From the IMG/VR virus record IMGVR_UViG_2609459792_000007: a stretch of 64,000 nt of DNA; one strand, given 5' to 3'. The notes beneath the pieces are model-generated. The model had not been told where the DNA came from, did not search any database, and was given only the letters and a program-made list of their open reading frames with translations. Source of the stretch: a virus. Its lineage: Duplodnaviria > Heunggongvirae > Uroviricota > Caudoviricetes. Made by a program: the position numbers and the translations under genes. Positions 1 through 51,375 of this stretch are shown here, one piece after another (the first letter of the stretch is position 1; each line of letters begins with the position of its first letter).

Positions 1-1160
1 ACTTCATCGGTAAAGATATTGTTTACTTCCACAGCCTGTTCTGGCCTGCCATGCTGGAAGGCAGCAACTTCCGCAAGCCGACCAACCTGTTTGTTCACGG
101 CTATGTGACGGTGAACGGCGCGAAGATGTCCAAGTCTCGCGGCACCTTTATTAAAGCCAGCACCTGGCTGAATCATTTTGACGCCGACAGCCTGCGTTAC
201 TACTACACTGCGAAACTCTCTTCGCGCATTGATGATATCGATCTCAACCTGGAGGATTTCGTTCAGCGCGTGAATGCCGATATCGTGAACAAAGTGGTTA
301 ACCTGGCCTCCCGTAATGCAGGCTTTATCAACAAGCGTTTTGACGGCGTGCTGGCAAGCGAACTGGCTGACCCGCAACTGTACAAAACCTTTACTGATGC
401 CGCTGAAGTGATTGGCGAAGCATGGGAAAGCCGCGAATTTGGTAAAGCTATCCGTGAAATCATGGCATTGGCTGACCTGGCTAACCGCTATGTCGATGAA
501 CAGGCTCCGTGGGTGGTGGCGAAGCAGGAAGGACGCGATGCCGATCTGCAGGCGATTTGCTCTATGGGCATTAACCTGTTCCGCGTGCTGATGACGTACC
601 TGAAGCCGGTACTGCCGAAACTGACTGAACGTGCAGAAGCATTCCTGAATACAGAACTGACCTGGGATGGTATCCAGCAACCGCTGCTGGGCCATAAAGT
701 GAATCCGTTCAAGGCACTGTATAACCGCATCGATATGAAGCAGGTTGAAGCACTGGTGGAAGCATCCAAAGAAGAAGTGAAAGCCACAGCCGCACCGGTA
801 ACTGGCCCACTGGCTGACGACCCGATTCAGGAAACTATCACCTTTGACGACTTCGCCAAAGTTGACCTGCGCGTGGCGCTGATTGAAAACGCAGAGTTTG
901 TAGAAGGTTCTGACAAACTGCTTCGTCTGACGCTGGATCTCGGTGGTGAAAAGCGTAATGTCTTCTCAGGCATCCGTTCCGCTTATCCAGATCCACAGGC
1001 ACTGATTGGTCGTCACACCATTATGGTGGCTAACCTGGCACCACGTAAAATGCGCTTCGGTATCTCCGAAGGCATGGTGATGGCTGCTGGCCCCGGCGGG
1101 AAAGATATCTTCCTGTTAAGCCCGGATGCTGGTGCTAAACCAGGCCACCAGGTTAAGTAA
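1..1160 (+). CDS. metG: methionyl-tRNA synthetase, C-terminal about 385 aa (5' end outside window)
   Basis: Frame is open from position 3; translation ([20 protein letters not shown]...KMSKSRGT...GAKPGHQVK) is recognisable as enterobacterial MetG including the KMSKS motif; stop TAA at 1158-1160. Confidence 0.95.
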
Positions 1161-1243: not shown

Positions 1244-1258
1244 AAAACAATTTGTTTT
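1244..1258. promoter_or_regulatory. operator-like palindrome AAAACAA-T-TTGTTTT (family A)
   Basis: Perfect 15-bp dyad; overlaps presumed -35 region upstream of GATAAT at 1274-1279. Confidence 0.5.
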
Positions 1259-1293
1259 CTGCCTTTTGTTAATTGAGATAATAAGCCACATAA

Positions 1294-1859: not shown

Positions 1860-2790
1860 GGCGGTCACAATTTGATTCTTTTCTATAAGAATCCGTTGAT
1901 CGCCACTACTCCCCTTCCATACCCGCAATCACATCCTTAAATATCAATAAGTTATAGTTGTTTATACAATCAAGAAAACAACTGAATAACAGATCAACGA
2001 AACGTCAACGCTTTCACCCGATTTGGTCTAAAAAATTGACGTTTTCACACATCACTGCTTATACCCGTAATTCTACGCAGCAGACAGCGCCACAGCGTCC
2101 AATTTTCACCACAGACGACCCAACACACTACCAACAAAAACACACGCTCAAAATCGTTCCCGTTGCGTTACATAACCATATAAACAACTTATTTTCAGGC
2201 ATAACAAAACAACTAAATAACACATATGCCATTACCAAAAACAACCAACCTCTTTATGGCAGGCTACCGAAAAGACCCACCTCTTCTTCCCAGGCTACCG
2301 GACAACCAACCTAACTTTCACAGGCAATCCGAAAACATTCATACGCGCGATACCCACGATACGCCATTCCCCAAATAGCGAAGCACACCAGAATCACTGA
2401 AACCCCCAACGAAGCCTGTAACCGCAAGGTTTCTCTCAATCCCAAAAGACACGAAACAGAACAATCACGGGAAACGCCATTACCCAACACACGAATAACT
2501 ACAAAAGCCTTTCACGCACTCCAGACAAACACAATAACGAAAGGAATCGCCCACCTGCCATTACTCCATATACGGAGAAGAACAATCACCAAAACGACGA
2601 GAACCCCCCATAGAAGAACCACCGCAAAACGAACGAAACCACATACACCGACAGATAAAACAACACACCCAATTCACCAACAGAAATAGTCGTCGTATAG
2701 AACGTTCTGGAAGGAGTGAGCATTAACGCCTATAGAGAGGTTGAGACAGATAAAACACGAAGAAAACACAACATGTATAGCGAAGAAGCC
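1860..2790. repeat. A+C-rich, G/T-poor non-coding tract (strong strand compositional skew)
   Basis: About 900 bp dominated by A and C on the plus strand; only a low-complexity ORF (1958-2314) with no RBS; recurring caggctaccg words. Confidence 0.6.
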
Positions 2791-2899
2791 AGGTATGTAT
2801 AAGTGGGGAGGGAAGGAGGGGTGTCGCCTCCTTTTTCGTATTTATTCAACTCCTGATTTTATCCCCCGTAACACCCCTACGGTCAGCCTTCGGTCCATA

Positions 2900-3035
2900 C
2901 AGGGAAAAGGTTGCATCCCGCTACAGAAACGGCTGGGTTGCCTTCGGGGAACGGCTGGAGGTTTTCAGGGAAACGGTCGAGTTGCCTGTGTGGATTTCGG
3001 GAGAAGGCTCGATGCCGGTTCAGGAACGGTGGCGT
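2900..3035. repeat. iteron-like direct repeats G(G/A)AACGG(C/T), about 22-bp spacing, 5 copies
   Basis: cagaaacggctgg 2924, gggaacggctgg 2947, cagggaaacggtcg 2967, gggagaaggctcg 2998, caggaacggtggc 3021. Confidence 0.6.
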
Positions 3036-3364
3036 ACCGGTATAGCGAGAGGGAGAGTTGCGGCTACCCACCTGTAATGTGCGGGAAGAAGAGAGGCGCT
3101 CACGTAGGCGGACTTGCTTACCGCTGGATTCCCTCTGAATGCCCAGCTACAGCGTAATTGTGCCAGACAGTCAGCGGGTCACAATCGATTTCAGTAGGTT
3201 TTCGGGGAGGGGATTATTCTGCCCACCAGCCATCTTCGGCCACTAAATCAGAATAATGTAAAAAGTGTACTCGATACTGAACCTGAAAACTCACTGCCAA
3301 AACAACATTCACCGGAATAAAATCCTTTTTAGCCTGTGCGTTATTGCGATAATAACACCAACGA

Positions 3365-3380
3365 GAAAACAAGTTGTTTA
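3365..3380. promoter_or_regulatory. operator-like palindrome GAAAACAAGTTGTTTA (family A)
   Basis: Sits 10 nt downstream of GATAAT (3345-3350) and just upstream of RBS aagga. Confidence 0.55.
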
Positions 3381-3728: not shown

Positions 3729-3757
3729 CAAAGCCAGCATTGCTGGCTTAATTTCTC
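3729..3757 (+). terminator. hairpin terminator
   Basis: aagccagc-attg-ctggctt followed by aatttctc. Confidence 0.5.
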
Positions 3758-3848
3758 TATAGCCGCAGGGAAGAACCTGCATATCGCTCATGCACCTGAT
3801 CAATATGCTTTGTAGCCGTTTTCTTACTGGTATTATTTACGCCATTGA

Positions 3849-3864
3849 GAAAACAAGTTGTTTA
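3849..3864. promoter_or_regulatory. operator-like palindrome GAAAACAAGTTGTTTA (family A)
   Basis: Downstream of TATTAT -10-like hexamer, immediately before RBS acggag. Confidence 0.55.
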
Positions 3865-4751: not shown

Positions 4752-4768
4752 GATAACAATTTGTTTTC
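4752..4768. promoter_or_regulatory. operator-like palindrome GATAACAATTTGTTTTC (family A)
   Basis: Same word plus tctgcc flank as the copy at 1244. Confidence 0.5.
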
Positions 4769-4825
4769 TGCCTTATCTGATTTGTGAAAATGATTTCACT
4801 GAAGCAACTTAATAAGGAAACCATC

Positions 4826-5349: not shown

Positions 5350-5377
5350 TTAAGGCCACCAGCATTGGTGGCCTTAA
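5350..5377 (+). terminator. hairpin terminator, copy 1 of a twin element
   Basis: ttaaggccacca-gcat-tggtggccttaa. Confidence 0.6.
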
Positions 5378-5535: not shown

Positions 5536-5817
5536 ATGACTGATTTCACCATTACCCCTAAAGCACAAAATGTATTCCTTGAATCATGGCTGGACTTGCC
5601 GGAAACAGAACAGCAAGAAATGGATCATGTGGATTATGACGAGCAGGTAAGCACGCGATTCTTCCACTTTGAGGGCTGCGTTTACGACATTGCCGACTTC
5701 ATGCGAGATGACCGCTTCCCTGAATGGCACGCCAGTTATCCACTAAACGCCTTTGCCATGCTGATGATCCGTGTGGATGATTCAGGGGATACCATCGACA
5801 TCGGTCTGCTCCACTAA
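5536..5817 (+). CDS. hypothetical small acidic protein
   Basis: ATG 5536 with RBS gagga 7 nt upstream; D/E-rich. Confidence 0.6.
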   Translation: MTDFTITPKAQNVFLESWLDLPETEQQEMDHVDYDEQVSTRFFHFEGCVYDIADFMRDDRFPEWHASYPLNAFAMLMIRVDDSGDTIDIGLLH

Positions 5818-5820
5818 AGA

Positions 5821-5848
5821 TTAAGGCCACCAATGCTGGTGGCCTTAA
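5821..5848 (+). terminator. hairpin terminator, copy 2 of twin element (loop inverted)
   Basis: ttaaggccacca-atgc-tggtggccttaa; same stem as 5350 with loop gcat changed to atgc. Confidence 0.6.
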
Positions 5849-5986
5849 ATGACCATCCTGTTTCCCGCAGGCTAAAAACACCAACCTCTTACCTCCAGGC
5901 AACCGACAAACCCACCTGTTCCCGTCCGGCTACCGCAACTTTCCACTTTGACGCCTTATTCGTACAACGATAATTAACACCAACAA

Positions 5987-6002
5987 GAAAACAATTTGTT
6001 AT
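5987..6002. promoter_or_regulatory. sigma70-like promoter plus family A operator GAAAACAATTTGTTAT
   Basis: TTTGAC (5946-5951), 16-nt spacer, GATAAT (5968-5973), then the dyad, then RBS aagga. Confidence 0.6.
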
Positions 6003-6021: not shown

Positions 6022-6504
6022 ATGAATTTTATCGCTACTGTAAACGCACCCGCACATGGCAATATCGCTGTAACGTTCTCTGACATTGAAAAACGAGTAC
6101 TTGGTGCATGGCGCGACAATGAGACGGTAGAACTGTCAGCACAAGAAAAATGCATTATTGCACGCGACATCATTGGCAATCGTCGTTACTCGCGGGTATT
6201 TGAGAAAGCGTATGTGGTAAATTCTGGGTTCGGAACGTTCGTCTTTCCGGTGCGCTCCGGGCGATTCTGCCAGTCCAAGCTGATTGAGTTCGCTACGCAG
6301 ATTTCTGTCTGGATTAAAACTCAATCGTCGTTCAAATTTTCCGACGATGAAGCAGTATCGCAGGGGATGCGGATCGCCAACAATGCGATTAAATGCAAAA
6401 ACATTACGTATACCGCTGGCGTTGACACATGGAAACTGTTTTGCGCTAACTTTATGCTGAATGTATACGCAAGCAACCGCATCCACATCCTTGATGGCGT
6501 GTAA
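6022..6504 (+). CDS. hypothetical protein (160 aa)
   Basis: ATG with RBS aaggaa; preceded by promoter/operator module. Confidence 0.65.
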   Translation: MNFIATVNAPAHGNIAVTFSDIEKRVLGAWRDNETVELSAQEKCIIARDIIGNRRYSRVFEKAYVVNSGFGTFVFPVRSGRFCQSKLIEFATQISVWIKTQSSFKFSDDEAVSQGMRIANNAIKCKNITYTAGVDTWKLFCANFMLNVYASNRIHILDGV

Positions 6505-6513
6505 CTGAGAAGA

Positions 6514-6535
6514 GGGCCAGAAACGGCCCTTTCTC
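6514..6535 (+). terminator. hairpin terminator
   Basis: gggcc-agaaac-ggccc followed by tttctc. Confidence 0.6.
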
Positions 6536-6553
6536 TATAGCCACCAGCTGCCG

Positions 6554-6633
6554 CAGGGAAATTTTCAGAAACGGCGAGGAACGTATTCATGAGCCGACGG
6601 GAAACGGCCAGGATTTTTTCGGGAAACGGCTGC
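6554..6633. repeat. second iteron-like cluster TTTTC(A/G)GGAAACGGC
   Basis: cagaaacggcgagg 6566, cgggaaacggccagg 6598, cgggaaacggctgc 6620; last two exactly 22 bp apart. Confidence 0.55.
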
Positions 6634-7088
6634 ATTCGCCTTTATGTAGAAAAAACATCGGGAAGCTGGTGGAATCCAACCAGCGGTTGTCGGACAGGCG
6701 AGCGGGGAAAATTATGATGACTTTCGTCGCCTGATACATCCAGATTTCTTTCGTAGCGTAATCACATACGTGATTAAGTGGTGTGATTATGTGAAAAATC
6801 ACGCGCACATAATACGCGAGCGGACACAGAACAACACAAAATGCCGATCCGCGCCGACAAATAAACGCGGATCACATAGCAAGACTAAAAGCCAATGATT
6901 AACCATACGCTATAGCGCAATATAACGCGTTTTAAGCGCGTTAATGTGTTAAGTAATGGGTATGTACTGGCAAGGATATAAAAGCGCGTCTATGGCGTTA
7001 TTTTGGCGCTTATTTTTATGTTGTTGGAGTGAGTTAAAGACAATAAAAAACGCCCCATCATGGGCGGGTTATGGGGGGAGTATTGAAA

Positions 7089-7128
7089 AAAAAAAAAGCG
7101 CCCATGGGGGGCGCTCGATTTTATTTGT
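7089..7128. terminator. bidirectional hairpin terminator
   Basis: A-run, gcgccc-catgg-ggggcgc, T-run; ends the minus-strand 8274-7121 operon. Confidence 0.7.
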
Positions 7129-8870: not shown

Positions 8871-9395
8871 TCAAAAAGGCAAAATTCGTTCAACCCAATC
8901 GAACAAAACAACTATTTTTCTACCGTTCTCGACACGTAGTGTAACCTGACAAGCATCTGCGCCTGCTGACACCCCCTCAATTTCACGGCCATCCGCCATG
9001 TACACCCTTATAGATTTGTTTGCTTTGTAGGCTTGGTTGCAAATTGCAAAAAAATCGCGGCGTGATGGCCGATTATCGACATAATCAGGGTGAACTGTTA
9101 GTCGACCTTTGAAATCGTGAGCGATACTGTCAACCACACCTGATTCAATTGTACTAATGCGTTCAAGTGGGAGCCTTATACGATTTTCTTTGTCAAAAGG
9201 GGCTGGGCAAAGGTCAACTTTGTTACGAGATGGCATGAGGCCATAAACGTACATGCAAAACGCCTGGCCATCTTCGAGAGTGACCCTTACAGGAATTTGT
9301 TCTCTGCGCCAGAACATCAGTAGTTTTTCAACGTTAGTGTAATCTCGCGGCCAGAGTTCAGCTTGGATACCGTAGGTAATATCTTTGGTTGTCAT
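8871..9395 (-). CDS. hypothetical protein
   Basis: ORF; likely start MTTKD at 9395 overlapping upstream stop. Confidence 0.5.
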   Translation of the reverse strand: MTTKDITYGIQAELWPRDYTNVEKLLMFWRREQIPVRVTLEDGQAFCMYVYGLMPSRNKVDLCPAPFDKENRIRLPLERISTIESGVVDSIAHDFKGRLTVHPDYVDNRPSRRDFFAICNQAYKANKSIRVYMADGREIEGVSAGADACQVTLRVENGRKIVVLFDWVERILPF

Positions 9396-9399
9396 GTCA

Positions 9400-9822
9400 T
9401 CACAGAGTTGTTGGCAGAATGTCGATGTCACCAGAATTGCTGGTGAACACCCTGAACGCTTTTGTGTCTCCATTCTTCAGAGTCGTTTCTCGCTCTTGAC
9501 GAGCGGGGTTTAGAGCACATAAACCTGCACCTTCAAGAGATGCACCCACAATTAATTCTCCGGCATTTAAATGGAAAGTCGCTTTTTCGCCTGTAGCCAG
9601 TTTTGCGACAGTTTCGCCATTGATGAAAATGGAAGCATCACATCCAGCTCCTACAAAACCTGTGTCTCTCATTACCACCAACGTAGCTGGCGCTGCGCTT
9701 TGATACTTGAACACTTTGGCCTGCGGTGCTGGTTTGGCGTCATGGATTGATATTGGACGTGATTGGCACGCGGTAAGCATCAACACTGGTAACGTTAGTA
9801 GAGGGAGAAGCGAGTATTTCAT
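9400..9822 (-). CDS. putative lipoprotein
   Basis: MKYSLLPLLTLPVLMLTAC: signal peptide with lipobox LTAC. Confidence 0.6.
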   Translation of the reverse strand: MKYSLLPLLTLPVLMLTACQSRPISIHDAKPAPQAKVFKYQSAAPATLVVMRDTGFVGAGCDASIFINGETVAKLATGEKATFHLNAGELIVGASLEGAGLCALNPARQERETTLKNGDTKAFRVFTSNSGDIDILPTTL

Positions 9823-11777: not shown

Positions 11778-11796
11778 TAAGTAAGTGATTACTTAG
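11778..11796. promoter_or_regulatory. family B motif TAAGTAAGTGATTACTTAG
   Basis: Inverted TAAGTA / TACTTA in divergent intergenic region between helicase and ParB-like genes. Confidence 0.45.
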
Positions 11797-11813
11797 TGGA
11801 TTGTAGCAATAAA

Positions 11814-12494
11814 ATGGATGTAAAAATCACGATTTTGCAGGTTGATGTTGCCAACCTTCGCCCGAATACCTGGAACACCAATTCGGTTGGTGCGCAGAAT
11901 TTTGAAAAACTGAAAGGTTCTATCGAAAAATTGGGCTTTTTTAAGCCAATTTTGGCTCGTGAACTTGAAGATGGATTTTTTGAAATCCTCGGCGGCGAAC
12001 ATCGCTGGCGTGCTGCTATTGAGCAAGGAATTTCAACGGTTCCGGTGCTTTCTGTGGGCAAAATTAGCGATGTCGTAGCTAAACAGATGTCACTGGTGGA
12101 CAACGAGCGATACGGTGAAGACGACCAAATCGCATTGCAACGCTTCATTGAAGAAATTCAGTCAGAACTTGACTATCAACTGTCTGAAATCGCCCCGTAT
12201 GACGACGAAATCTCGATGGTTTTAGCAAAAGAGGCGGCAATCGACCTTGAAGCACTGGAGGCGTTGTCTCGTGGTAGTGATGAGCCTGTCGATACCGACA
12301 AACGAGAGAAAACCGAACGTGTGGGTGCGGAACATCAGACCATGCGCTTCAAAGTAACTTTCGATGCGTCAGATCGTGTTGCAGAAACCATAAAAAACAT
12401 CATCAAAGAGCAGGCTATTAACACCGGTAATGAAATGGAGAACGCTGGTGAGGCTCTGGTGTGGCTGGTCGACTACTACAAGGAGCGTATGTAA
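11814..12494 (+). CDS. ParB N-terminal domain (ParB/Srx-like) protein
   Basis: ILGGEHRWRAA motif typical of ParB-NTD; ATG 11814 (track start 11796). Confidence 0.7.
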   Translation: MDVKITILQVDVANLRPNTWNTNSVGAQNFEKLKGSIEKLGFFKPILARELEDGFFEILGGEHRWRAAIEQGISTVPVLSVGKISDVVAKQMSLVDNERYGEDDQIALQRFIEEIQSELDYQLSEIAPYDDEISMVLAKEAAIDLEALEALSRGSDEPVDTDKREKTERVGAEHQTMRFKVTFDASDRVAETIKNIIKEQAINTGNEMENAGEALVWLVDYYKERM

Positions 12495-13162
12495 TGACCA
12501 AAAAGTTTGAAATCGTATATCGCGACCCGGCAGATCTTATTCCCTATGAGATGAATGCCAAAAAGCATGATGAACAGCAGATCAGAGATCTGGCCGCAGC
12601 CATTAAAAAGCGCGGATTTGACCAGCCAATTACGGTCGATAAGAACGACGTAATTATTACTGGCCACGGCCGCCGTGAGGCTGCAATTTTTGCTGGACTT
12701 GAGCGCGTACCGGTTATTGTTCGCGATGATCTCAGTGATGACGAGGTTCGTGCGAAGCGCCTTGAAGATAACCGACTTGCCAGCATTGATTACGATGCAA
12801 TTAAGCTACAGAAAGAGCTTGAGTCGCTTGTTCTGGACGATATCGAGGTTTTCGGCTTTGAAGAGCGTGAGTTGAATGTTCTCGTTGGCAGTATGACAGA
12901 AGAAATGGACACCGACTCGCTAGTTATCGATCTTGGCGAAGAAACTAAACGACAGAAGGATGAACACACCGAGATCAGTCGTGAAGTTGCAGCGGAAGAA
13001 GTACGTGTTGTCGACGTATTGGGCTTTAAAACGCTCCCTGCTGGCTCTGCCATTGTTGTTGGTGATTTGCTTGCCCATATGGAAGAAATGACGGGAGAAA
13101 GCGGGGTAGACGCATTTGTGGCATATGCGGAGAAGATCTCTTCCGGGGAGATGGCTGCATGA
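12494..13162 (+). CDS. ParB N-terminal domain protein, second copy
   Basis: ITGHGRREAA motif; ATG 12494 overlaps upstream stop (TAATG); RBS aggagcg. Confidence 0.7.
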   Translation: MTKKFEIVYRDPADLIPYEMNAKKHDEQQIRDLAAAIKKRGFDQPITVDKNDVIITGHGRREAAIFAGLERVPVIVRDDLSDDEVRAKRLEDNRLASIDYDAIKLQKELESLVLDDIEVFGFEERELNVLVGSMTEEMDTDSLVIDLGEETKRQKDEHTEISREVAAEEVRVVDVLGFKTLPAGSAIVVGDLLAHMEEMTGESGVDAFVAYAEKISSGEMAA

Positions 13163-13824
13163 GCAAATACATCATCAACGTATCGTTTCAGACACGCGTA
13201 AATAAAACCACGCGCACGTTGGAAATCGCTGAGTCGTTCGGGCTTGGCCTGGACGAAAAAGAGTGGACGCTTTACGACAATCTGGAGCTGGAAGTGAAGC
13301 AGGGCGATGTGGTGTACATCACCGGCCAATCCGGTTCCGGCAAATCCGTTGTGCTGCGCGAGTTGCAACGACAGATGAAGGATGAAGGGCTGTCTGTAGC
13401 CTCCATCGATGATTTTACCTTCGATAATGAGGTTAACGTCATCGATCAGTTGGGCAAAACGACCAGTGATGCGCTTGGGTTGTTATCTATGGCTGGTCTG
13501 AACGATGCATATCTGTTTGTTCGCAAGCCTTCTGAAATGTCAGACGGCCAGAAATATCGTCTCAAGATTGCCAAACTGATTGAGTCAGGCGCTAAAGTAT
13601 GGGCTGCTGACGAGTTCGGCGCTGTTCTCGACCGTGTAACCGCTCAGGTTGTGGCGTCTAACCTCCAGCGTGCCGCGCGAAAGGTTGGTGCGACGGTAAT
13701 GGTGGCGACGACTCACGAAGACCTGAAGAACGCGCTGCGCCCGGATATGCAGATCACCAAGCACTACAAAGAACGCGTGAAGGTGGAATATCACAATGGT
13801 AGTCATGATGAGGTCCATTCATGA
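13159..13824 (+). CDS. minimal ABC-type ATPase
   Basis: Walker A GQSGSGKS, signature-like MSDGQKYRL, Walker B VWAADEFG, H-loop ATTHE. Confidence 0.7.
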   Translation: MSKYIINVSFQTRVNKTTRTLEIAESFGLGLDEKEWTLYDNLELEVKQGDVVYITGQSGSGKSVVLRELQRQMKDEGLSVASIDDFTFDNEVNVIDQLGKTTSDALGLLSMAGLNDAYLFVRKPSEMSDGQKYRLKIAKLIESGAKVWAADEFGAVLDRVTAQVVASNLQRAARKVGATVMVATTHEDLKNALRPDMQITKHYKERVKVEYHNGSHDEVHS

Positions 13825-45708: not shown

Positions 45709-45807
45709 TGTTAACAGCCATTGATTCTCGCCTAAAAATTCTAAGGCAGCACCTACCATTTAACCTTTACACAGCAGCCGTAGGCATTTAGGCTATATCA
45801 CATATAA

Positions 45808-45823
45808 GAAAACAAGTTGTTTC
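45808..45823. promoter_or_regulatory. family A operator GAAAACAAGTTGTTTC upstream of partition operon
   Basis: Dyad between promoter-like sequence and RBS of ParA-like gene. Confidence 0.55.
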
Positions 45824-45857: not shown

Positions 45858-46526
45858 ATGACCAAGATCTTTGTGGTTGGCGGCACAAAGGGCGGGCCTG
45901 GCAAATCCACCGTTGCCCAGCAAATTGCCGTTTGCCTGAAAGTCAAAAAGAAGAAGAAGGTTTATATCACTGATATAGATATTCAGCGCACGACAACAAG
46001 CTGGTGTGAAGACCGTCGACAGAACGAAGACCTTGAGCTGATTCCTTTTGCATACGTTCAGGATGACATCATTAAGCACCTAAAATCGCTTCAGGGTAGA
46101 GCTGAGTTTGTAGTGGTAGATGCTGGTGGCTTTGACTCCGAAATTCAGCGACAAGCGATGCTGATGGCCGACGTTATCATTATCCCGCTTCGTCCTAAGC
46201 GTCGTGATTTGAAATCTCTGCGTGACATCGATCCTATTATCGACAATGTTCGTAATGTAAACGATAAAGTGAAGGTCCGCGCGGTCATGAACCAGTGCCC
46301 GGCTTTGCCATCACAAGTGTCTCGCATTCTGGCGGCTAAAGAGATTGTCGAGACGTTTGGCATCGAGTCTGCGCCAGTCAATCTATATAACCGCAACGTC
46401 TACGATGATGCGGAAGAGTCAGGTCGTTCTATCTTTGAAATGACCGGTAGCGAGCGCGACAAAAAGGCGGAAGCCGAGTTTGAAGAATTTGTAGATTATC
46501 TGTTGAGTCTGGAGGAAGAAGAATAA
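45858..46526 (+). CDS. ParA/MinD-family partition ATPase (small type)
   Basis: Deviant Walker A GGTKGGPGKST; about 220 aa. Confidence 0.8.
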   Translation: MTKIFVVGGTKGGPGKSTVAQQIAVCLKVKKKKKVYITDIDIQRTTTSWCEDRRQNEDLELIPFAYVQDDIIKHLKSLQGRAEFVVVDAGGFDSEIQRQAMLMADVIIIPLRPKRRDLKSLRDIDPIIDNVRNVNDKVKVRAVMNQCPALPSQVSRILAAKEIVETFGIESAPVNLYNRNVYDDAEESGRSIFEMTGSERDKKAEAEFEEFVDYLLSLEEEE

Positions 46527-46885
46527 TGTCCATGAAAATGGGTGACCTAGCAAAGCGCAAAGAGCCTGATGCACCGGCTAAGAACACAACTCCTTTGCGC
46601 CAACCAGTCAGACCACAAGGACGCCCGACTCGTGGCAAAGAGAAAATTAAAAGCCGCACTATGTCACTGGAAGACGAATACTTCGAGCTTCTGGAAATGA
46701 TGAAGTTTATCCCTCGTTTCGAGAAGTTCACCCGCTCTGATGTGATTCGTGCTGCTATTTTCCATCTGGCAGAGAAGTCACCGCAGGAAATCGAGGACAT
46801 CGTGAAACTTAACGAGGCGATCACCGCTGCCGATGTCACGATGCGTACCGATGAAATCAAACGAGAGTTGATGAAGAAAGGTTAA
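46526..46885 (+). CDS. putative partition centromere-binding protein
   Basis: Coupled to ParA-like gene (ATGTCCATG overlap); basic N-terminus and ribbon-helix-helix-like C-terminal half. Confidence 0.5.
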   Translation: MSMKMGDLAKRKEPDAPAKNTTPLRQPVRPQGRPTRGKEKIKSRTMSLEDEYFELLEMMKFIPRFEKFTRSDVIRAAIFHLAEKSPQEIEDIVKLNEAITAADVTMRTDEIKRELMKKG

Positions 46886-47816: not shown

Positions 47817-47871
47817 CCTGCTTCTGTATATATAAATAATAAGTAACTTATTAAATATATACGGAAGCAGG
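47817..47871. repeat. 55-bp imperfect palindromic element, copy 2
   Basis: Identical to copy at 15012 except one base (cctgcTtctg vs cctgcAtctg). Confidence 0.8.
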
Positions 47872-48771: not shown

Positions 48772-50112
48772 ATGACCGAACTTTGCCATACAGGACGCGG
48801 GCTGTCCGAAGAGTTTGATGAAGATTTCCAGAACAGACTGACGGCATATTTTTGTCGTGATCACGAGTTTCTTACTCGTGCGGGAGATCTGGTTGTGCCT
48901 AGCCAATTTGCCAATGCGGCCAATGCCATATTGGTTAATATGGTTTCGGGCTATTACCGTATGTACAAGAGCGCGCCCTCTTCATCTGCAATTCTGGATA
49001 TGCTTAAGCGTGCGAAACGCGATAAGACTATCCGTGAGGAACTATTCGCCGATGTTGTTGCTGCGTTTAAGCGCATCCTTGCAGAAAAATTGTCCGATAC
49101 CTCGTACATGGTTGACCAGGTATCAACCTTCGCAAAAAGCGTAGCGTTTGATGATGCTCTGATTAAGGCTGCTGAACTGAAAGAGAAAGGCGACTTTCAG
49201 GGGGCGATGGCAATCATGGCCAAGGTTCAGCAGATTGGATCGAACGAAGCGACCGGAATCTATGACTACTACACCTCCGCAAGTGAGCGATTGAAAGCGC
49301 GTGAATATGAGGCTTCAGAGGAGTATGTGCCAAACAGCATTACAACTGGACTCCCTCTGCTCGATAGGTTGCTGTACCAAAAAGGCTGGGCGAAGCGTGA
49401 AATGGTGCTCTTCATGGGGTTCGCTAAATCCGGTAAATCGACCGCAATGGGTGAGTTTTCCATAAACGCAACGCTTGCTGGCTACAATGTTCTGTATCTC
49501 TCGCTGGAGGTTCACACCAACATTTTGTCCGACCGTTTTGATGCAAGATTGTCGGAGACGGAAATGTCCAAGTTGGTGGAACGGCGCGATGAAGTTCATC
49601 GTAAGTTGGCAGAGTTGGGAGCCTCTAAGGGGATTGGTAGTTTGTGGGTTGTTGAGCGTCCGTCAGGAAGTATGTCACCGGCAGATCTGGACCGTATGCT
49701 TAACAGCATGAAAGCCAACGGCATGGTGCCTGACATGGTTGTTGTCGACTACGCAGATTTGATGCGTGCCAGTTATGACCTTCGTGATGATCGCGCCAAC
49801 ATTCGTAGTATCTACACCGATTTACGTGCTCTTTATGACAAGCATAACGTTGCTGGTATCACGGCGTCGCAAACAAACCGTGAAGGTGGCGCGTCAGAAG
49901 TTGCCACAATGATGCACGCTGCCGACAACATCGAAAAAGTACGTATTGCTGACCTGGTAATAACGATCAACAAAACCGAAGAAGAAGAAGCGAAAGGAGA
50001 GGCTCGTCTCTACTTTGCTGGTTCGCGTAACCAGCAGGGAGGGATCAGCATTCGCGTTAAACAAAACCTCGAACAAATGCGCTTCATTGAGCGGATCTTA
50101 GACGTTACCTAA
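48772..50112 (+). CDS. DnaB-family replicative helicase
   Basis: RecA-like C-terminal domain with Walker A GFAKSGKST and Walker B VVVDYADLM. Confidence 0.75.
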   Translation: MTELCHTGRGLSEEFDEDFQNRLTAYFCRDHEFLTRAGDLVVPSQFANAANAILVNMVSGYYRMYKSAPSSSAILDMLKRAKRDKTIREELFADVVAAFKRILAEKLSDTSYMVDQVSTFAKSVAFDDALIKAAELKEKGDFQGAMAIMAKVQQIGSNEATGIYDYYTSASERLKAREYEASEEYVPNSITTGLPLLDRLLYQKGWAKREMVLFMGFAKSGKSTAMGEFSINATLAGYNVLYLSLEVHTNILSDRFDARLSETEMSKLVERRDEVHRKLAELGASKGIGSLWVVERPSGSMSPADLDRMLNSMKANGMVPDMVVVDYADLMRASYDLRDDRANIRSIYTDLRALYDKHNVAGITASQTNREGGASEVATMMHAADNIEKVRIADLVITINKTEEEEAKGEARLYFAGSRNQQGGISIRVKQNLEQMRFIERILDVT

Positions 50113-50121
50113 AAAATAAGC

Positions 50122-51375
50122 GTGGAGAACACCTCCACGCTTGATTCATTGGTGAAACAACTTTTCTTTTGCCAAACCACAAAAGAAAAACACATGAGCC
50201 TTTATGTTATATCAACATTTAGGTTGGTCACAATATTGCCTGTTAAAAGTGGAATTATCGTGAGCGAGCTGAAAGAGCTAATTACCGAATTAGATTTTGA
50301 ACAATGGTTGGACACTGAAGGTATCGTTTATCGACGTGGAGGCGTGAGTGCTCGCGGTCGTGAAGTGAATATCAAGGAGTGTCCGGTATGCGGCAGCTCC
50401 AACTGGAAGGTATATTTCAATCTGACCAGTGGCGTCGGCAAATGCTTTGCTGGTGATCATCCCGAAGAGATTCAGTTCAATAAGCTGGTCTTCCTCAAGC
50501 ACTACAGCGGTAAATCACGACGACAGTTCGAGGAATATGTGCAGAACGCTCTTCTTTCCCAGGGGTGGGCACCAAAGAAAGAAGAGCTAGTGCTTGCAAG
50601 CACAGTCGAGTTAGAGGGGCCAGTTGCACTCCCTCGTCATTACGAGCTTCCTATAGATGGCCGTCTTCCAGACTATCTGGTTGAACGAAACATATCACCT
50701 GAAATGGCAAAGTATTTTGACCTACGATACTGCGTCGAAGGCAAGCACGCTTATGTAGATCCGTATACAGATCAGGTAAAAGGGCAGATATTCGATATGC
50801 GAGTACTGATACCGGTTTACGATCTGGATGGGGTAATGAAGACATTTCAGGGACGAGACATTACCGGTACAGCAGAACGCCGCTACCTCTTTCCTATGCA
50901 GCTTCCAGCTTCAGGTAAATTTCTCTACAACGGCCATAATGCAGTCGGCAAACAGACTGTAGTTGTCTGTGAGGGTGCGTTCGATGTTATGGGGGTCAAA
51001 CGAGCTATTTTCGACGAAGAAACATTACGTGATTACGTGGAGCCAATAGGAACGTTCGGGATGCATCTATCTGGTAACACCACTCAGGATGCAGAAGATC
51101 AGTTAGGCGCGTTCCTGACGCTCAAGGCGCGTGGGTTACGTAATGTGATCATGATGTGGGATAGTGAAAAGCAAGCTATACGCAACACTATGGCCGCAGC
51201 CAGGCGACTGACCAGTATCGGTCTTAATGTCAAAGTTGCGTGTTTGGGTGAGGAAGGACTCGACCCGGGCGGTGCAACGCCAGAACAAATTATCAAAGCC
51301 TATTATCGGGCAAAACCGTATACCAAACAGTTGGAGTTGCAAAGCAAGGTTTTGGGCATTAAGGCGCTATCGTAA
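50122..51375 (+). CDS. DNA primase (zinc-binding plus TOPRIM)
   Basis: CPVCGSS...KCF zinc-ribbon-like segment and TOPRIM-like VVVCEGAFD; start codon uncertain. Confidence 0.7.
   Translation: MENTSTLDSLVKQLFFCQTTKEKHMSLYVISTFRLVTILPVKSGIIVSELKELITELDFEQWLDTEGIVYRRGGVSARGREVNIKECPVCGSSNWKVYFNLTSGVGKCFAGDHPEEIQFNKLVFLKHYSGKSRRQFEEYVQNALLSQGWAPKKEELVLASTVELEGPVALPRHYELPIDGRLPDYLVERNISPEMAKYFDLRYCVEGKHAYVDPYTDQVKGQIFDMRVLIPVYDLDGVMKTFQGRDITGTAERRYLFPMQLPASGKFLYNGHNAVGKQTVVVCEGAFDVMGVKRAIFDEETLRDYVEPIGTFGMHLSGNTTQDAEDQLGAFLTLKARGLRNVIMMWDSEKQAIRNTMAAARRLTSIGLNVKVACLGEEGLDPGGATPEQIIKAYYRAKPYTKQLELQSKVLGIKALS

What the first reader, a model, noticed from the sequence alone, without database searches (positions are those of the whole stretch)
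6554..6633. Second GGAAACGG repeat cluster bracketing the cassette array
The same core repeat with 22-bp spacing recurs 3.6 kb downstream, and the core also appears in the terminator loop at 6514. Two clusters flanking the cassette array could define a regulated or looped domain, or a bipartite origin.
Basis: seen in the sequence. Interest (0 to 1): 0.5.

Follow-up and report, generated by a model that had tools for sequence, protein, structure and literature searches.

The report
Conserved repeat arrays in a phage-plasmid
The GGAAACGG cluster is real: it is one of two conserved, evenly spaced repeat arrays in the non-coding DNA of SSU5/pHCM2/pMT1-type phage-plasmids, most likely docking sites for a still unidentified DNA-binding protein, and it is not the plasmid's known replication origin.

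Summary
Confirmed. The window is an SSU5-like phage-plasmid of E. coli (about 110 kb, carrying metG). G[AG]AA[AC]GG occurs 16 times on the + strand. Five copies lie in 2904-3029 and four in 6520-6629, all in one orientation. A cluster of 4 or more arose in 1 of 1000 simulations. Both arrays sit in non-coding DNA. The second follows the hairpin ending the last small gene.

They are present in SSU5, pHCM2 and Klebsiella, Enterobacter and Citrobacter relatives; pMT1 keeps only the second. The register is fixed in close relatives (22,22,22,31,22 and 33/34,22). Motif columns are more conserved than spacers. Two distant relatives keep the same core with looser spacing.

They are not RepA iterons. 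repA lies about 34 kb away and its iterons read TATGCTGYCAGCGGT. I found no Rfam match, no RNA covariation and no meaningful fliC-leader similarity. The GGA expected of a CsrA sponge is absent from conserved units.

Best reading (about 0.45): two arrays of protein-binding sites on duplex DNA, iteron- or centromere-like, bracketing the accessory-gene array. The binder is unknown. The ParB-family pair 5 kb away is only a lead. A second origin (about 0.2) remains possible: the same core and spacing form the internal origin of some prophage O-like initiator genes.

The parts
6554..6631 (+). Array 2. Units are CAGGGAAA (6554), CAGAAACGGCG (6566), AGGAACG (6577), CGGGAAACGGCC (6598) and CGGGAAACGGCT (6620). 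They follow an 11/22/33-bp register, all in one orientation.
   Evidence: The array is conserved in 10 of 10 family members aligned, with spacing 33/34,22 and motif-column identity 0.97 against 0.85 for spacers.
2899..3028 (+). Array 1. Six units: CAGGGAAAAGG 2899, CAGAAACGG 2923, CGGGGAACGG 2944, CAGGGAAACGG 2965, CGGGAGAAGG 2997 and CAGGAACGG 3020. Spacings are 22,22,22,31,22.
   Evidence: SSU5, pHCM2 and E. coli pYLPI6a show exactly the same register as the window. Enterobacter and Citrobacter relatives show the same register with one degenerate unit. Klebsiella shows 22s throughout. Motif-column identity is 0.93 against 0.76 for spacers. The array is absent from pMT1.
6511..6532 (+). Terminator-like hairpin ending the 160-aa gene (GGGCC-AGAAAC-GGCCC followed by TTTCTCT). 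Its loop carries an out-of-register copy of the core.
   Evidence: The stem is kept across the family with one-sided changes (GU to AU or GC), as scored by RNAalifold.
6022..6504 (+). Conserved 160-aa gene (phrog_1641), always immediately upstream of array 2. It is preceded by an operator-bearing promoter and three 30-bp repeats (5846-5939).
6634..7120 (.). The rest of the roughly 600-bp conserved non-coding region between convergent genes. It starts with the nearly invariant block GCCTTTATGTAGAAA and contains several hairpins.
   Evidence: Alignment A2 has 81% mean column identity across 10 elements. Hairpins are listed.
6541..6548 (-). Chi site (GCTGGTGG on the minus strand) immediately left of array 2.
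   Evidence: It is conserved in most close relatives but not in L136.
6665..6672 (+). Chi site immediately right of array 2.
11796..13162 (+). Two adjacent ParB N-terminal-domain genes (ParB1 11796-12494, ParB2 12461-13162), followed by an ABC-type ATPase gene (13159-13824) and a 296-aa gene. They are only candidate binders of the arrays.
   Evidence: Pfam PF02195 matches at E 3e-13 and 1.5e-8. Spo0J and Noc are the best solved relatives. The genes are conserved in every relative examined.

Best explanation
The cluster at 6554-6631 and its partner at 2899-3028 are arrays of same-orientation binding sites on double-stranded DNA for one sequence-specific protein. That protein is not the plasmid initiator RepA. 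Shown: the core G-R-A-A-M-G-G(C) is repeated five or six times on a two-helical-turn register. The arrays are non-coding, and array 2 starts directly after the hairpin that ends the last small gene. The arrays bracket the variable array of small accessory genes in every SSU5-like phage-plasmid examined that carries both. Inferred: the protein binds cooperatively along one face of the helix and builds a nucleoprotein complex at each array. The two complexes then act as a pair. They could bridge or loop, or serve as loading or centromere-like sites, to organise, insulate or regulate the accessory-gene segment. The binder is not identified. The most plausible candidates are the two ParB-family proteins encoded 5 kb to the right, together with their ABC-type ATPase. 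A conserved host protein is the alternative, because the core stays unchanged in relatives whose local proteins are only 28-70% identical.
For: The clustering is far beyond chance. Both arrays are conserved in E. coli, Salmonella (SSU5, pHCM2), Klebsiella, Enterobacter and Citrobacter elements. Array 2 is also in Yersinia pMT1. Among close relatives the spacers diverge (0.76-0.85 identity) while the motif (0.93-0.97) and the register are kept; the only spacing changes are 31 to 22 and 33/34. The two most divergent relatives keep the same core in both places. The distance between arrays varies from 1.5 to 3.6 kb but both are retained. No conserved ORF covers them: alignment indels are not multiples of three. 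There is no Rfam hit and no covariation beyond the hairpin. The same core on the same 22-bp register forms the internal origin of two prophage O-like initiator genes, which shows that such arrays do serve as protein-binding iterons. ParB-family genes lie in the same conserved block. Partition proteins are known to bind direct or inverted repeats in single or multiple copies, and ParB can bind heptamer half-sites GTTYCAC (PMC7022226). The reverse complement of the core here is GTTYC(C/T)(C/G).
Against: No binding protein was identified. Only the ParB N-terminal domain of ParB1 and ParB2 is recognisable. The ribbon-helix-helix look of the ParB1 C-terminus has no Pfam or PDB support, and its model was unusable at pLDDT 37. 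The adjacent 160-aa protein shows no DNA-binding fold. In the two distant relatives the spacing is looser (10-36 bp), which weakens the helical-phasing argument. All units point the same way as local transcription, and array 1 continues a T-poor strand-asymmetric region, so an RNA or single-strand role is not excluded. The ParA-like operon of the element uses a different operator.
Confidence: 0.45

Rival explanations
1. The arrays form a second, vegetative origin of replication or a cis-acting replication enhancer. An unidentified initiator binds both clusters, as in P4 ori plus crr, SPP1 oriL/oriR or R6K.
For: The layout is classic for iterons: five or six direct repeats about 22 bp apart. 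The same core and spacing form the origin inside O-like initiator genes in two prophage contigs. The element encodes its own DnaB-like helicase, primase, ligase and Pol III alpha, but no obvious vegetative initiator was seen. Array 2 lies in a 600-bp non-coding gap between convergent genes and is flanked by Chi sites that face outward.
Against: No homologue of the O-like DNA-binding domain exists in the window or in any of roughly 700 SSU5-like plasmids. No AT-rich unwinding element adjoins either array: the richest 40-bp windows are 72-78% AT and lie hundreds of bp away. The single DnaA-box-like match is not conserved. A 55-bp AT-rich palindrome upstream of the helicase-primase operon is an alternative origin candidate. 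The core does not change in relatives with about 50% protein identity, which is unusual for initiator-iteron pairs. GC skew and Chi polarity follow gene orientation and so give no independent support.
Confidence: 0.2
2. The repeats act in RNA. They are read-through or independently transcribed motifs that bind an RNA-binding protein or a small RNA, acting as a sponge or a processing signal.
For: All units have the orientation of local transcription. Array 1 follows an approximately 800-nt T-poor, AC-rich non-coding stretch with a conserved promoter-like sequence. GGA triplets occur about every 17 nt, a density I recall for CsrB. An FljA-like RNA-binding regulator is encoded 2.3 kb away.
Against: Array 2 starts directly after a hairpin followed by a T-run, and array 1 starts about 60 nt after one. 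No promoter was found for either array. There is no Rfam match at E of 1 or below. RNAalifold's covariation term is only -0.28 kcal/mol. The conserved core is RAAMGG, not GGA: the conserved units CAGAAACGG lack GGA. The fliC-leader resemblance is a chance-level 12-mer with no matrix hit. The FljA-like protein is only 28-35% identical in relatives that keep the core unchanged. A Y. pestis small-RNA survey lists no sRNA in this pMT1 intergenic region.
Confidence: 0.12
3. The arrays are functionless remnants of tandem duplication or cassette-exchange scars, carried along with the conserved flanks.
For: The module 'hairpin + TTTCTCTATAGCC + GCAGGGAA' also occurs after the first small gene at 3731-3780. 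Gene content between the arrays varies among relatives.
Against: The motif is more conserved than the spacers and the register is kept. The core survives in relatives whose flanks no longer align.
Confidence: 0.08

Closest known systems
Iterons of lambdoid O-type origins, here the variant ATGGAAACGGCA-N4-YGCCGA found inside O-like initiator genes of two IMG/VR prophage contigs (L035, L026)
   Same: The core is the same 8-9 bp (GGAAACGGC) on the same 22-bp register. There are four or five copies in one orientation. Some window units share the extension GAAACGGC-N4-TTGCC.
   Different: Those iterons lie inside the initiator gene, are dyad-symmetric, and are followed by an AT/GATC-rich stretch. 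Here the arrays are non-coding and mostly lack the dyad. They have no adjacent AT-rich element, occur twice, and no O-like protein is encoded.
RepA (IncFIB/P1-type) iterons of the same phage-plasmid
   Same: Both are arrays of direct repeats at about 21-22 bp spacing, split into two groups.
   Different: The RepA iterons read TATGCTGYCAGCGGT, flank repA, and lie about 34 kb away. No GRAAMGG cluster occurs near repA.
P4 ori plus crr, and SPP1 oriL/oriR or R6K alpha-beta-gamma: two or more separated clusters of one initiator's sites (from my own knowledge)
   Same: Two clusters of the same short repeat lie a few kb apart in the same orientation.
   Different: No initiator or primase-helicase with a matching DNA-binding domain was identified. 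A requirement for replication is untested.
Plasmid centromeres made of direct repeats (R1 parC/ParR, TP228 ParG, pSM19035 omega sites) and ParB binding to half-parS heptamers (PMC7022226)
   Same: Short repeats are arrayed on a helical register and can occur in several copies per replicon. ParB-family genes lie in the same conserved block. The reverse complement of the core (GTTYCCC or GTTYCTG) shares 5 of 7 positions with half-parS GTTYCAC.
   Different: The arrays are not adjacent to, and do not overlap the promoter of, any partition operon. The element's ParA-like operon carries a different palindromic operator. No HTH or RHH domain could be demonstrated in ParB1 or ParB2.

Membership tests
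RepA (IncFIB/P1-type) plasmid origin iterons | The sequence matches the iterons that flank repA. | tested here: not met
   The repA-flanking repeats read (G/T)TATGCTG(C/T)CAGCGGT, 4 upstream and at least 9 downstream. They are unrelated to GGGAAACGGC.
RepA (IncFIB/P1-type) plasmid origin iterons | The repeats lie next to the initiator gene. | tested here: not met
   repA lies at 113465..1095 of NZ_CP137164.1, about 34 kb from the arrays. There is no GRAAMGGY cluster in that part of the plasmid.
Lambdoid O-type origin | Four or more iterons on a roughly 20-24 bp register in one orientation. | tested here: met
   Spacings are 22,22,22,31,22 and 33,22.
Lambdoid O-type origin | The iterons lie inside the initiator gene, and a cognate O-like DNA-binding domain is encoded by the element. 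| tested here: not met
   No conserved ORF covers the arrays. tblastn of the L035 and L026 O-like proteins against the window gives nothing below E 0.1 apart from the repeats themselves. None of the SSU5-like plasmids in PLSDB match the N-terminal domain.
Lambdoid O-type origin | An AT-rich unwinding region directly adjoins the iterons. | tested here: not met
   The richest 40-bp windows are 72.5% AT at 3242 and 77.5% at 7011, about 210 and 380 bp from the arrays.
P4-type bipartite origin (ori plus crr) | Two separated clusters of the same initiator-binding repeat. | tested here: met
   The arrays at 2899-3028 and 6554-6631 share core and orientation.
P4-type bipartite origin (ori plus crr) | Both clusters are required in cis for replication and are bound by the element's primase-helicase. 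| not testable with these tools
   This needs replication assays and binding experiments. The primase (50122-51375) and DnaB-like helicase (48772-50112) are separate proteins with no recognised DNA-binding extension.
CsrB/RsmZ-type protein-sponge RNA | GGA is the conserved core of the repeats, and the RNA has its own promoter and terminator. | tested here: not met
   The conserved units CAGAAACGG lack GGA; the conserved core is RAAMGG. There is no Rfam hit. No promoter was found, and each array follows a hairpin plus T-run.
Direct-repeat plasmid centromere (type Ib/II) | An array of short direct repeats on a helical register. | tested here: met
Direct-repeat plasmid centromere (type Ib/II) | The array lies next to, or overlaps the promoter of, the partition operon whose small DNA-binding protein binds it. 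| tested here: not met
   The ParA-like operon (45858-46885) is about 40 kb away and is preceded by the palindrome AGAAAACAAGTTGTTTC, not by GRAAMGG repeats. The ParB-domain operon starts 5 kb away.
ParB parS or half-parS sites | A 16-bp palindrome TGTTTCACGTGAAACA or a heptamer GTTYCAC, bound by an HTH-containing ParB. | tested here: inconclusive
   The best unit matches 10 of 16 positions of parS. The reverse-complemented core matches 5 of 7 positions of half-parS (sequence inspection; consensus from PMC7022226). ParB1 resembles Spo0J and Noc only in the N-terminal domain, and no HTH was detected. The ParB1 model was unusable.
Type III toxin-antitoxin antitoxin repeats | Near-identical tandem repeats between a promoter and a terminator, upstream of an endoribonuclease toxin gene. 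| tested here: not met
   Outside the core, the units are too dissimilar for Tandem Repeats Finder to report an array. They lie after the hairpins, and no toxin-like gene follows.

The most novel reading that the evidence does not exclude
The two arrays are loading or anchoring sites for the element's unusual ParB-family pair: a ParB N-terminal CTPase-like domain joined to a non-HTH C-terminal DNA-binding module, working with an ABC-type ATPase. Together they would bridge the arrays into a loop or spread between them. That would insulate or silence the exchangeable accessory-gene island of SSU5/pHCM2/pMT1-type phage-plasmids, a KorB-like long-range control built on direct half-site repeats.
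Probability: 0.12. Interest if true: 0.7.

Novelty: new member of a known kind. Interest (0 to 1): 0.4.

Why it matters
SSU5-like phage-plasmids include pHCM2 of S. Typhi, pMT1 of Y. pestis and the widespread roughly 110-kb IncFIB 'phage-plasmids' of E. coli and Klebsiella that carry resistance genes. In the literature I could search, the only cis-acting sites described for them are the RepA iterons. Two strongly conserved, orphan repeat arrays that frame the exchangeable accessory-gene region point to an undescribed DNA-protein system in these elements, whether for maintenance, domain control or vegetative replication. The arrays also give a precise, cheap target for ChIP, deletion and incompatibility experiments. 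The evidence stops at sequence conservation, so the functional importance is unproven.

Tried and rejected
1. RepA iterons. Rejected on both sequence and location.

2. Known RNA family. Rfam at E of 1 or below finds nothing at either array. RNAalifold on ten homologues supports only the terminator hairpin.

3. CsrA sponge. Conserved units lack GGA.

4. Mimic of the fliC mRNA leader, the target of FljA, since an FljA-like gene lies at 8871-9473. I confirmed the E. coli leader sequence. The similarity is a single 12-mer that ties with an unrelated place in the window, and the leader scores below 2 bits on the unit matrix. The FljA-like protein is only 28-35% identical where the core is unchanged.

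6. The 216-aa neighbour. It has no Pfam family and its homologues are confined to this element family.

7. ParB1 structure. The alignment was too shallow, giving pLDDT 36.9, so the model is unusable. The C-terminal ribbon-helix-helix idea has no Pfam or PDB sequence support.

8. An O-like initiator in the element. None was found.

9. GC skew and Chi polarity as origin markers. Both follow gene orientation and so are uninformative.

10. Y. pestis sRNA catalogue. Its two pMT1 sRNAs map elsewhere.

11. Three-unit pattern scan of 185,579 genomes.

12. Literature. Searches found only RepA iterons described for SSU5-like plasmids. Two FljA papers and one 2026 preprint were not available.

Full report
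What the window is. The first 1160 bases are the 3' end of metG. The region 1100-9000 matches roughly 110-kb E. coli plasmids at 98% identity, and matches Escherichia phages Cyrano, CMS-2020a and PhiR41_1. Salmonella phage SSU5 and Klebsiella phage-plasmids match parts of it at about 80%. The window is therefore an SSU5/pHCM2-type phage-plasmid. Downstream lie a UvsW-like helicase, two ParB-domain genes, terminase and structural genes, a ParA-like gene, a DnaB-like helicase, a primase, a ligase and four tRNAs.

The observation. GGAAACGG lies at 6600 and 6622. AGAAACGG lies at 6567 and, in the hairpin loop, at 6519. With the degenerate core G[AG]AA[AC]GG the + strand has 16 copies. Five lie in 2904-3029 and four in 6520-6629, all in one orientation. 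The total count is what composition predicts. The clustering is not: in 1000 Markov simulations the largest cluster within 130 nt was 4 once and never 5. A position matrix built from the ten units finds no other + strand site at 12 bits or above in the window. The rest of a 98%-identical complete plasmid has no further cluster. Array 1 has six units with spacings 22,22,22,31,22. Array 2 has five units, two of them degenerate, on an 11/22/33 register.

Conservation. Distant BLAST finds the region of array 2 in 769 plasmid records, from Klebsiella, Escherichia, Enterobacter, Yersinia, Salmonella, Citrobacter and Cronobacter. It finds the region of array 1 in 716 records, none from Yersinia. In alignments of ten and nine representative elements, the motif columns are 0.97 and 0.93 identical against 0.85 and 0.76 for the spacers. 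The register is unchanged except for 31 to 22 in Klebsiella and 33 versus 34. In other relatives the arrays are only 1.5-2.4 kb apart, with one or two genes between them. Two divergent relatives carry local proteins only 28-70% identical to those of the window. They still carry GRAAACGG(C) units at both places, but with looser spacing of 10-36 bp. The stem of the hairpin before array 2 is kept through one-sided changes. Its loop copy of the core is out of register and absent in one distant relative.

What it is not. The plasmid initiator gene repA is about 34 kb away. It is flanked by 4 and at least 9 iterons of sequence TATGCTGYCAGCGGT, a P1/RepFIB-like layout. The arrays are not coding, because alignment indels break every frame. 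Rfam finds nothing, and RNAalifold finds no covariation beyond the hairpin. A CsrA-sponge reading fails because conserved units (CAGAAACGG) lack GGA. An FljA-like gene 2.3 kb away suggested mimicry of the fliC leader. The resemblance proved to be a chance-level 12-mer, and that protein diverges strongly where the core does not. A Y. pestis small-RNA survey reports no sRNA in this pMT1 intergenic region.

What it resembles. A scan of viral contigs for two cores 22 bp apart returned SSU5-like contigs. It also returned two prophage contigs in which four or five units of ATGGAAACGGCA-N4-YGCCGA lie on a 22-bp register inside a gene. That gene's product belongs to 'replication initiation O-like' families, and its C-terminus matches lambda/HK022/P22-type O proteins. 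The units are followed by TCTCTATACAGATC...ACAGATC. This is the lambda-ori layout, so the same core and spacing do serve as initiator-binding iterons elsewhere. The phage-plasmid, however, encodes no detectable relative of that DNA-binding domain. The arrays also lack an adjacent AT-rich element, and the one DnaA-box-like match near cluster 2 is not conserved. A 55-bp AT-rich palindrome upstream of the helicase-primase operon is another origin candidate.

Candidate binders. The 160-aa gene always precedes array 2. Its confident model has no known fold relative. The 216-aa neighbour is confined to this family and has no annotation. The two ParB-domain proteins 5 kb to the right belong to the same conserved block. 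ParB1 resembles Spo0J and Noc in its N-terminal domain and keeps a GGEHRWRAA motif. Its C-terminus looks to the eye like a strand-helix-helix module. Pfam and PDB sequence searches give no support for this, and the usable alignment was too shallow for a model. Partition proteins are known to bind direct or inverted repeats in one or several copies, and ParB binds heptamer half-sites GTTYCAC (PMC7022226). The reverse complement of the core here shares 5 of those 7 positions. This is a lead, not a test.

Interpretation. The fixed register with diverging spacers, the single orientation, the non-coding position after the hairpins and the family-wide retention of the pair fit arrays of sites for a DNA-binding protein best. 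I put this at about 0.45. The pair would act to bridge, insulate or anchor the accessory-gene segment; this step is inferred. A second origin or replication enhancer is the main rival at about 0.2. An RNA-level role sits at about 0.12 and functionless relics at about 0.08. The remainder is unassigned. The unchanged core in distant relatives suggests either a very conserved element protein or a host factor.

Novelty. Searches of the available literature found only the RepA iterons described for these plasmids. The arrays appear to be an undescribed member of a familiar kind of feature, iteron- or centromere-like repeat arrays, in a clinically relevant family.

Noticed in passing
whole window; e.g. 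3223(-), 5356(-), 5835(+), 6541(-), 6665(+), 14879(+) ... 63812(-): The Chi octamer GCTGGTGG occurs 18 times against 1.4 expected by chance. A further 11 copies lie in the two sampled stretches of a near-identical plasmid, L012 and L013; two of those 11, at L013 14173 and 14327, are the same sites as window 63812 and 63658. Orientation mostly follows gene orientation. Two sites flank array 2, facing outward.
   Followed up: partly
window 1960-2760 (hairpin at 2810-2837); SSU5 L002 900-1650; L136 14160-13300 (reverse strand): A conserved, non-coding stretch that is T-poor and AC-rich (A 269, C 211, G 96, T 104 in 2081-2760). It has a conserved promoter-like TTGACG-N17/18-TATACC at 2037-2066 and repeated GCCATTACCC motifs. 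In a distant relative it continues into an AG-rich stretch. It is absent from pMT1. It may be a long unstructured RNA. A sponge for a GU-rich small RNA such as GcvB, or for Hfq, is pure speculation.
   Followed up: partly
window 1245-1260, 1293-1308, 2181-2196, 3364-3380, 3848-3864, 4753-4769, 5986-6002 and 45805-45822: The same palindromic operator-like sequence, AGAAAACAAnTTGTTT, sits at the promoter of nearly every small accessory gene. It also sits in front of the ParA-like gene (45858-46526) and its 119-aa partner (46526-46885). This suggests one plasmid-type global regulon, as with KorA/KorB or omega.
   Followed up: partly
window 2238-2334 and 5846-5939: A second repeat family also occurs in two sets about 3.6 kb apart. 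Each set has three copies of a 30-bp unit (ACCAACCTCTT...CAGGCTACCG). One set lies inside the AC-rich stretch and the other lies upstream of the promoter of the 160-aa gene. The family is conserved in SSU5 and in distant relatives.
   Followed up: no
window 47817-47871: A 55-bp AT-rich near-perfect palindrome (CCTGCTTCTGTATATATAAATAATAAGTAACTTATTAAATATATACGGAAGCAGG). It lies between a GIY-YIG-like gene and the operon encoding the 249-aa protein, the DnaB-like helicase and the primase. It could be a vegetative origin or a divergent promoter region.
   Followed up: no
window 3731-3780 and 6511-6561: The module 'terminator hairpin + TTTCTCTATAGCC + GCAGGGAA' occurs twice. This suggests that small genes are inserted or exchanged at this sequence. 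TCTCTATA also follows the iterons of the O-like origins in L035 and L026.
   Followed up: no
window 5350-5377 and 5821-5848: Two 28-bp hairpin sequences that are exact reverse complements of each other flank the small gene 5536-5817. Each contains a Chi octamer, in opposite orientations.
   Followed up: no
window 1-1160 and upstream (L001 2770-6061): The phage-plasmid carries full-length copies of the host housekeeping genes metG (methionyl-tRNA synthetase) and apbC. They lie next to an IS100 element in some relatives.
   Followed up: no
window 8871-9473 (-): A protein of the FljA family (repressor of phase-1 flagellin, PF03614, E 2.5e-84) is encoded in the conserved block. It is retained even in phage-plasmids of Klebsiella, a genus I know to be non-flagellate, where it is strongly diverged. 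It may therefore have a target other than fliC.
   Followed up: partly
window 7042-7107 (+): A weak Rfam match to Hrs1 (Hfq-regulated sRNA 1): 32.7 bits against a gathering score of 56.4, E 0.0024. It lies among several terminator-like hairpins in the conserved intergenic region right of array 2.
   Followed up: no
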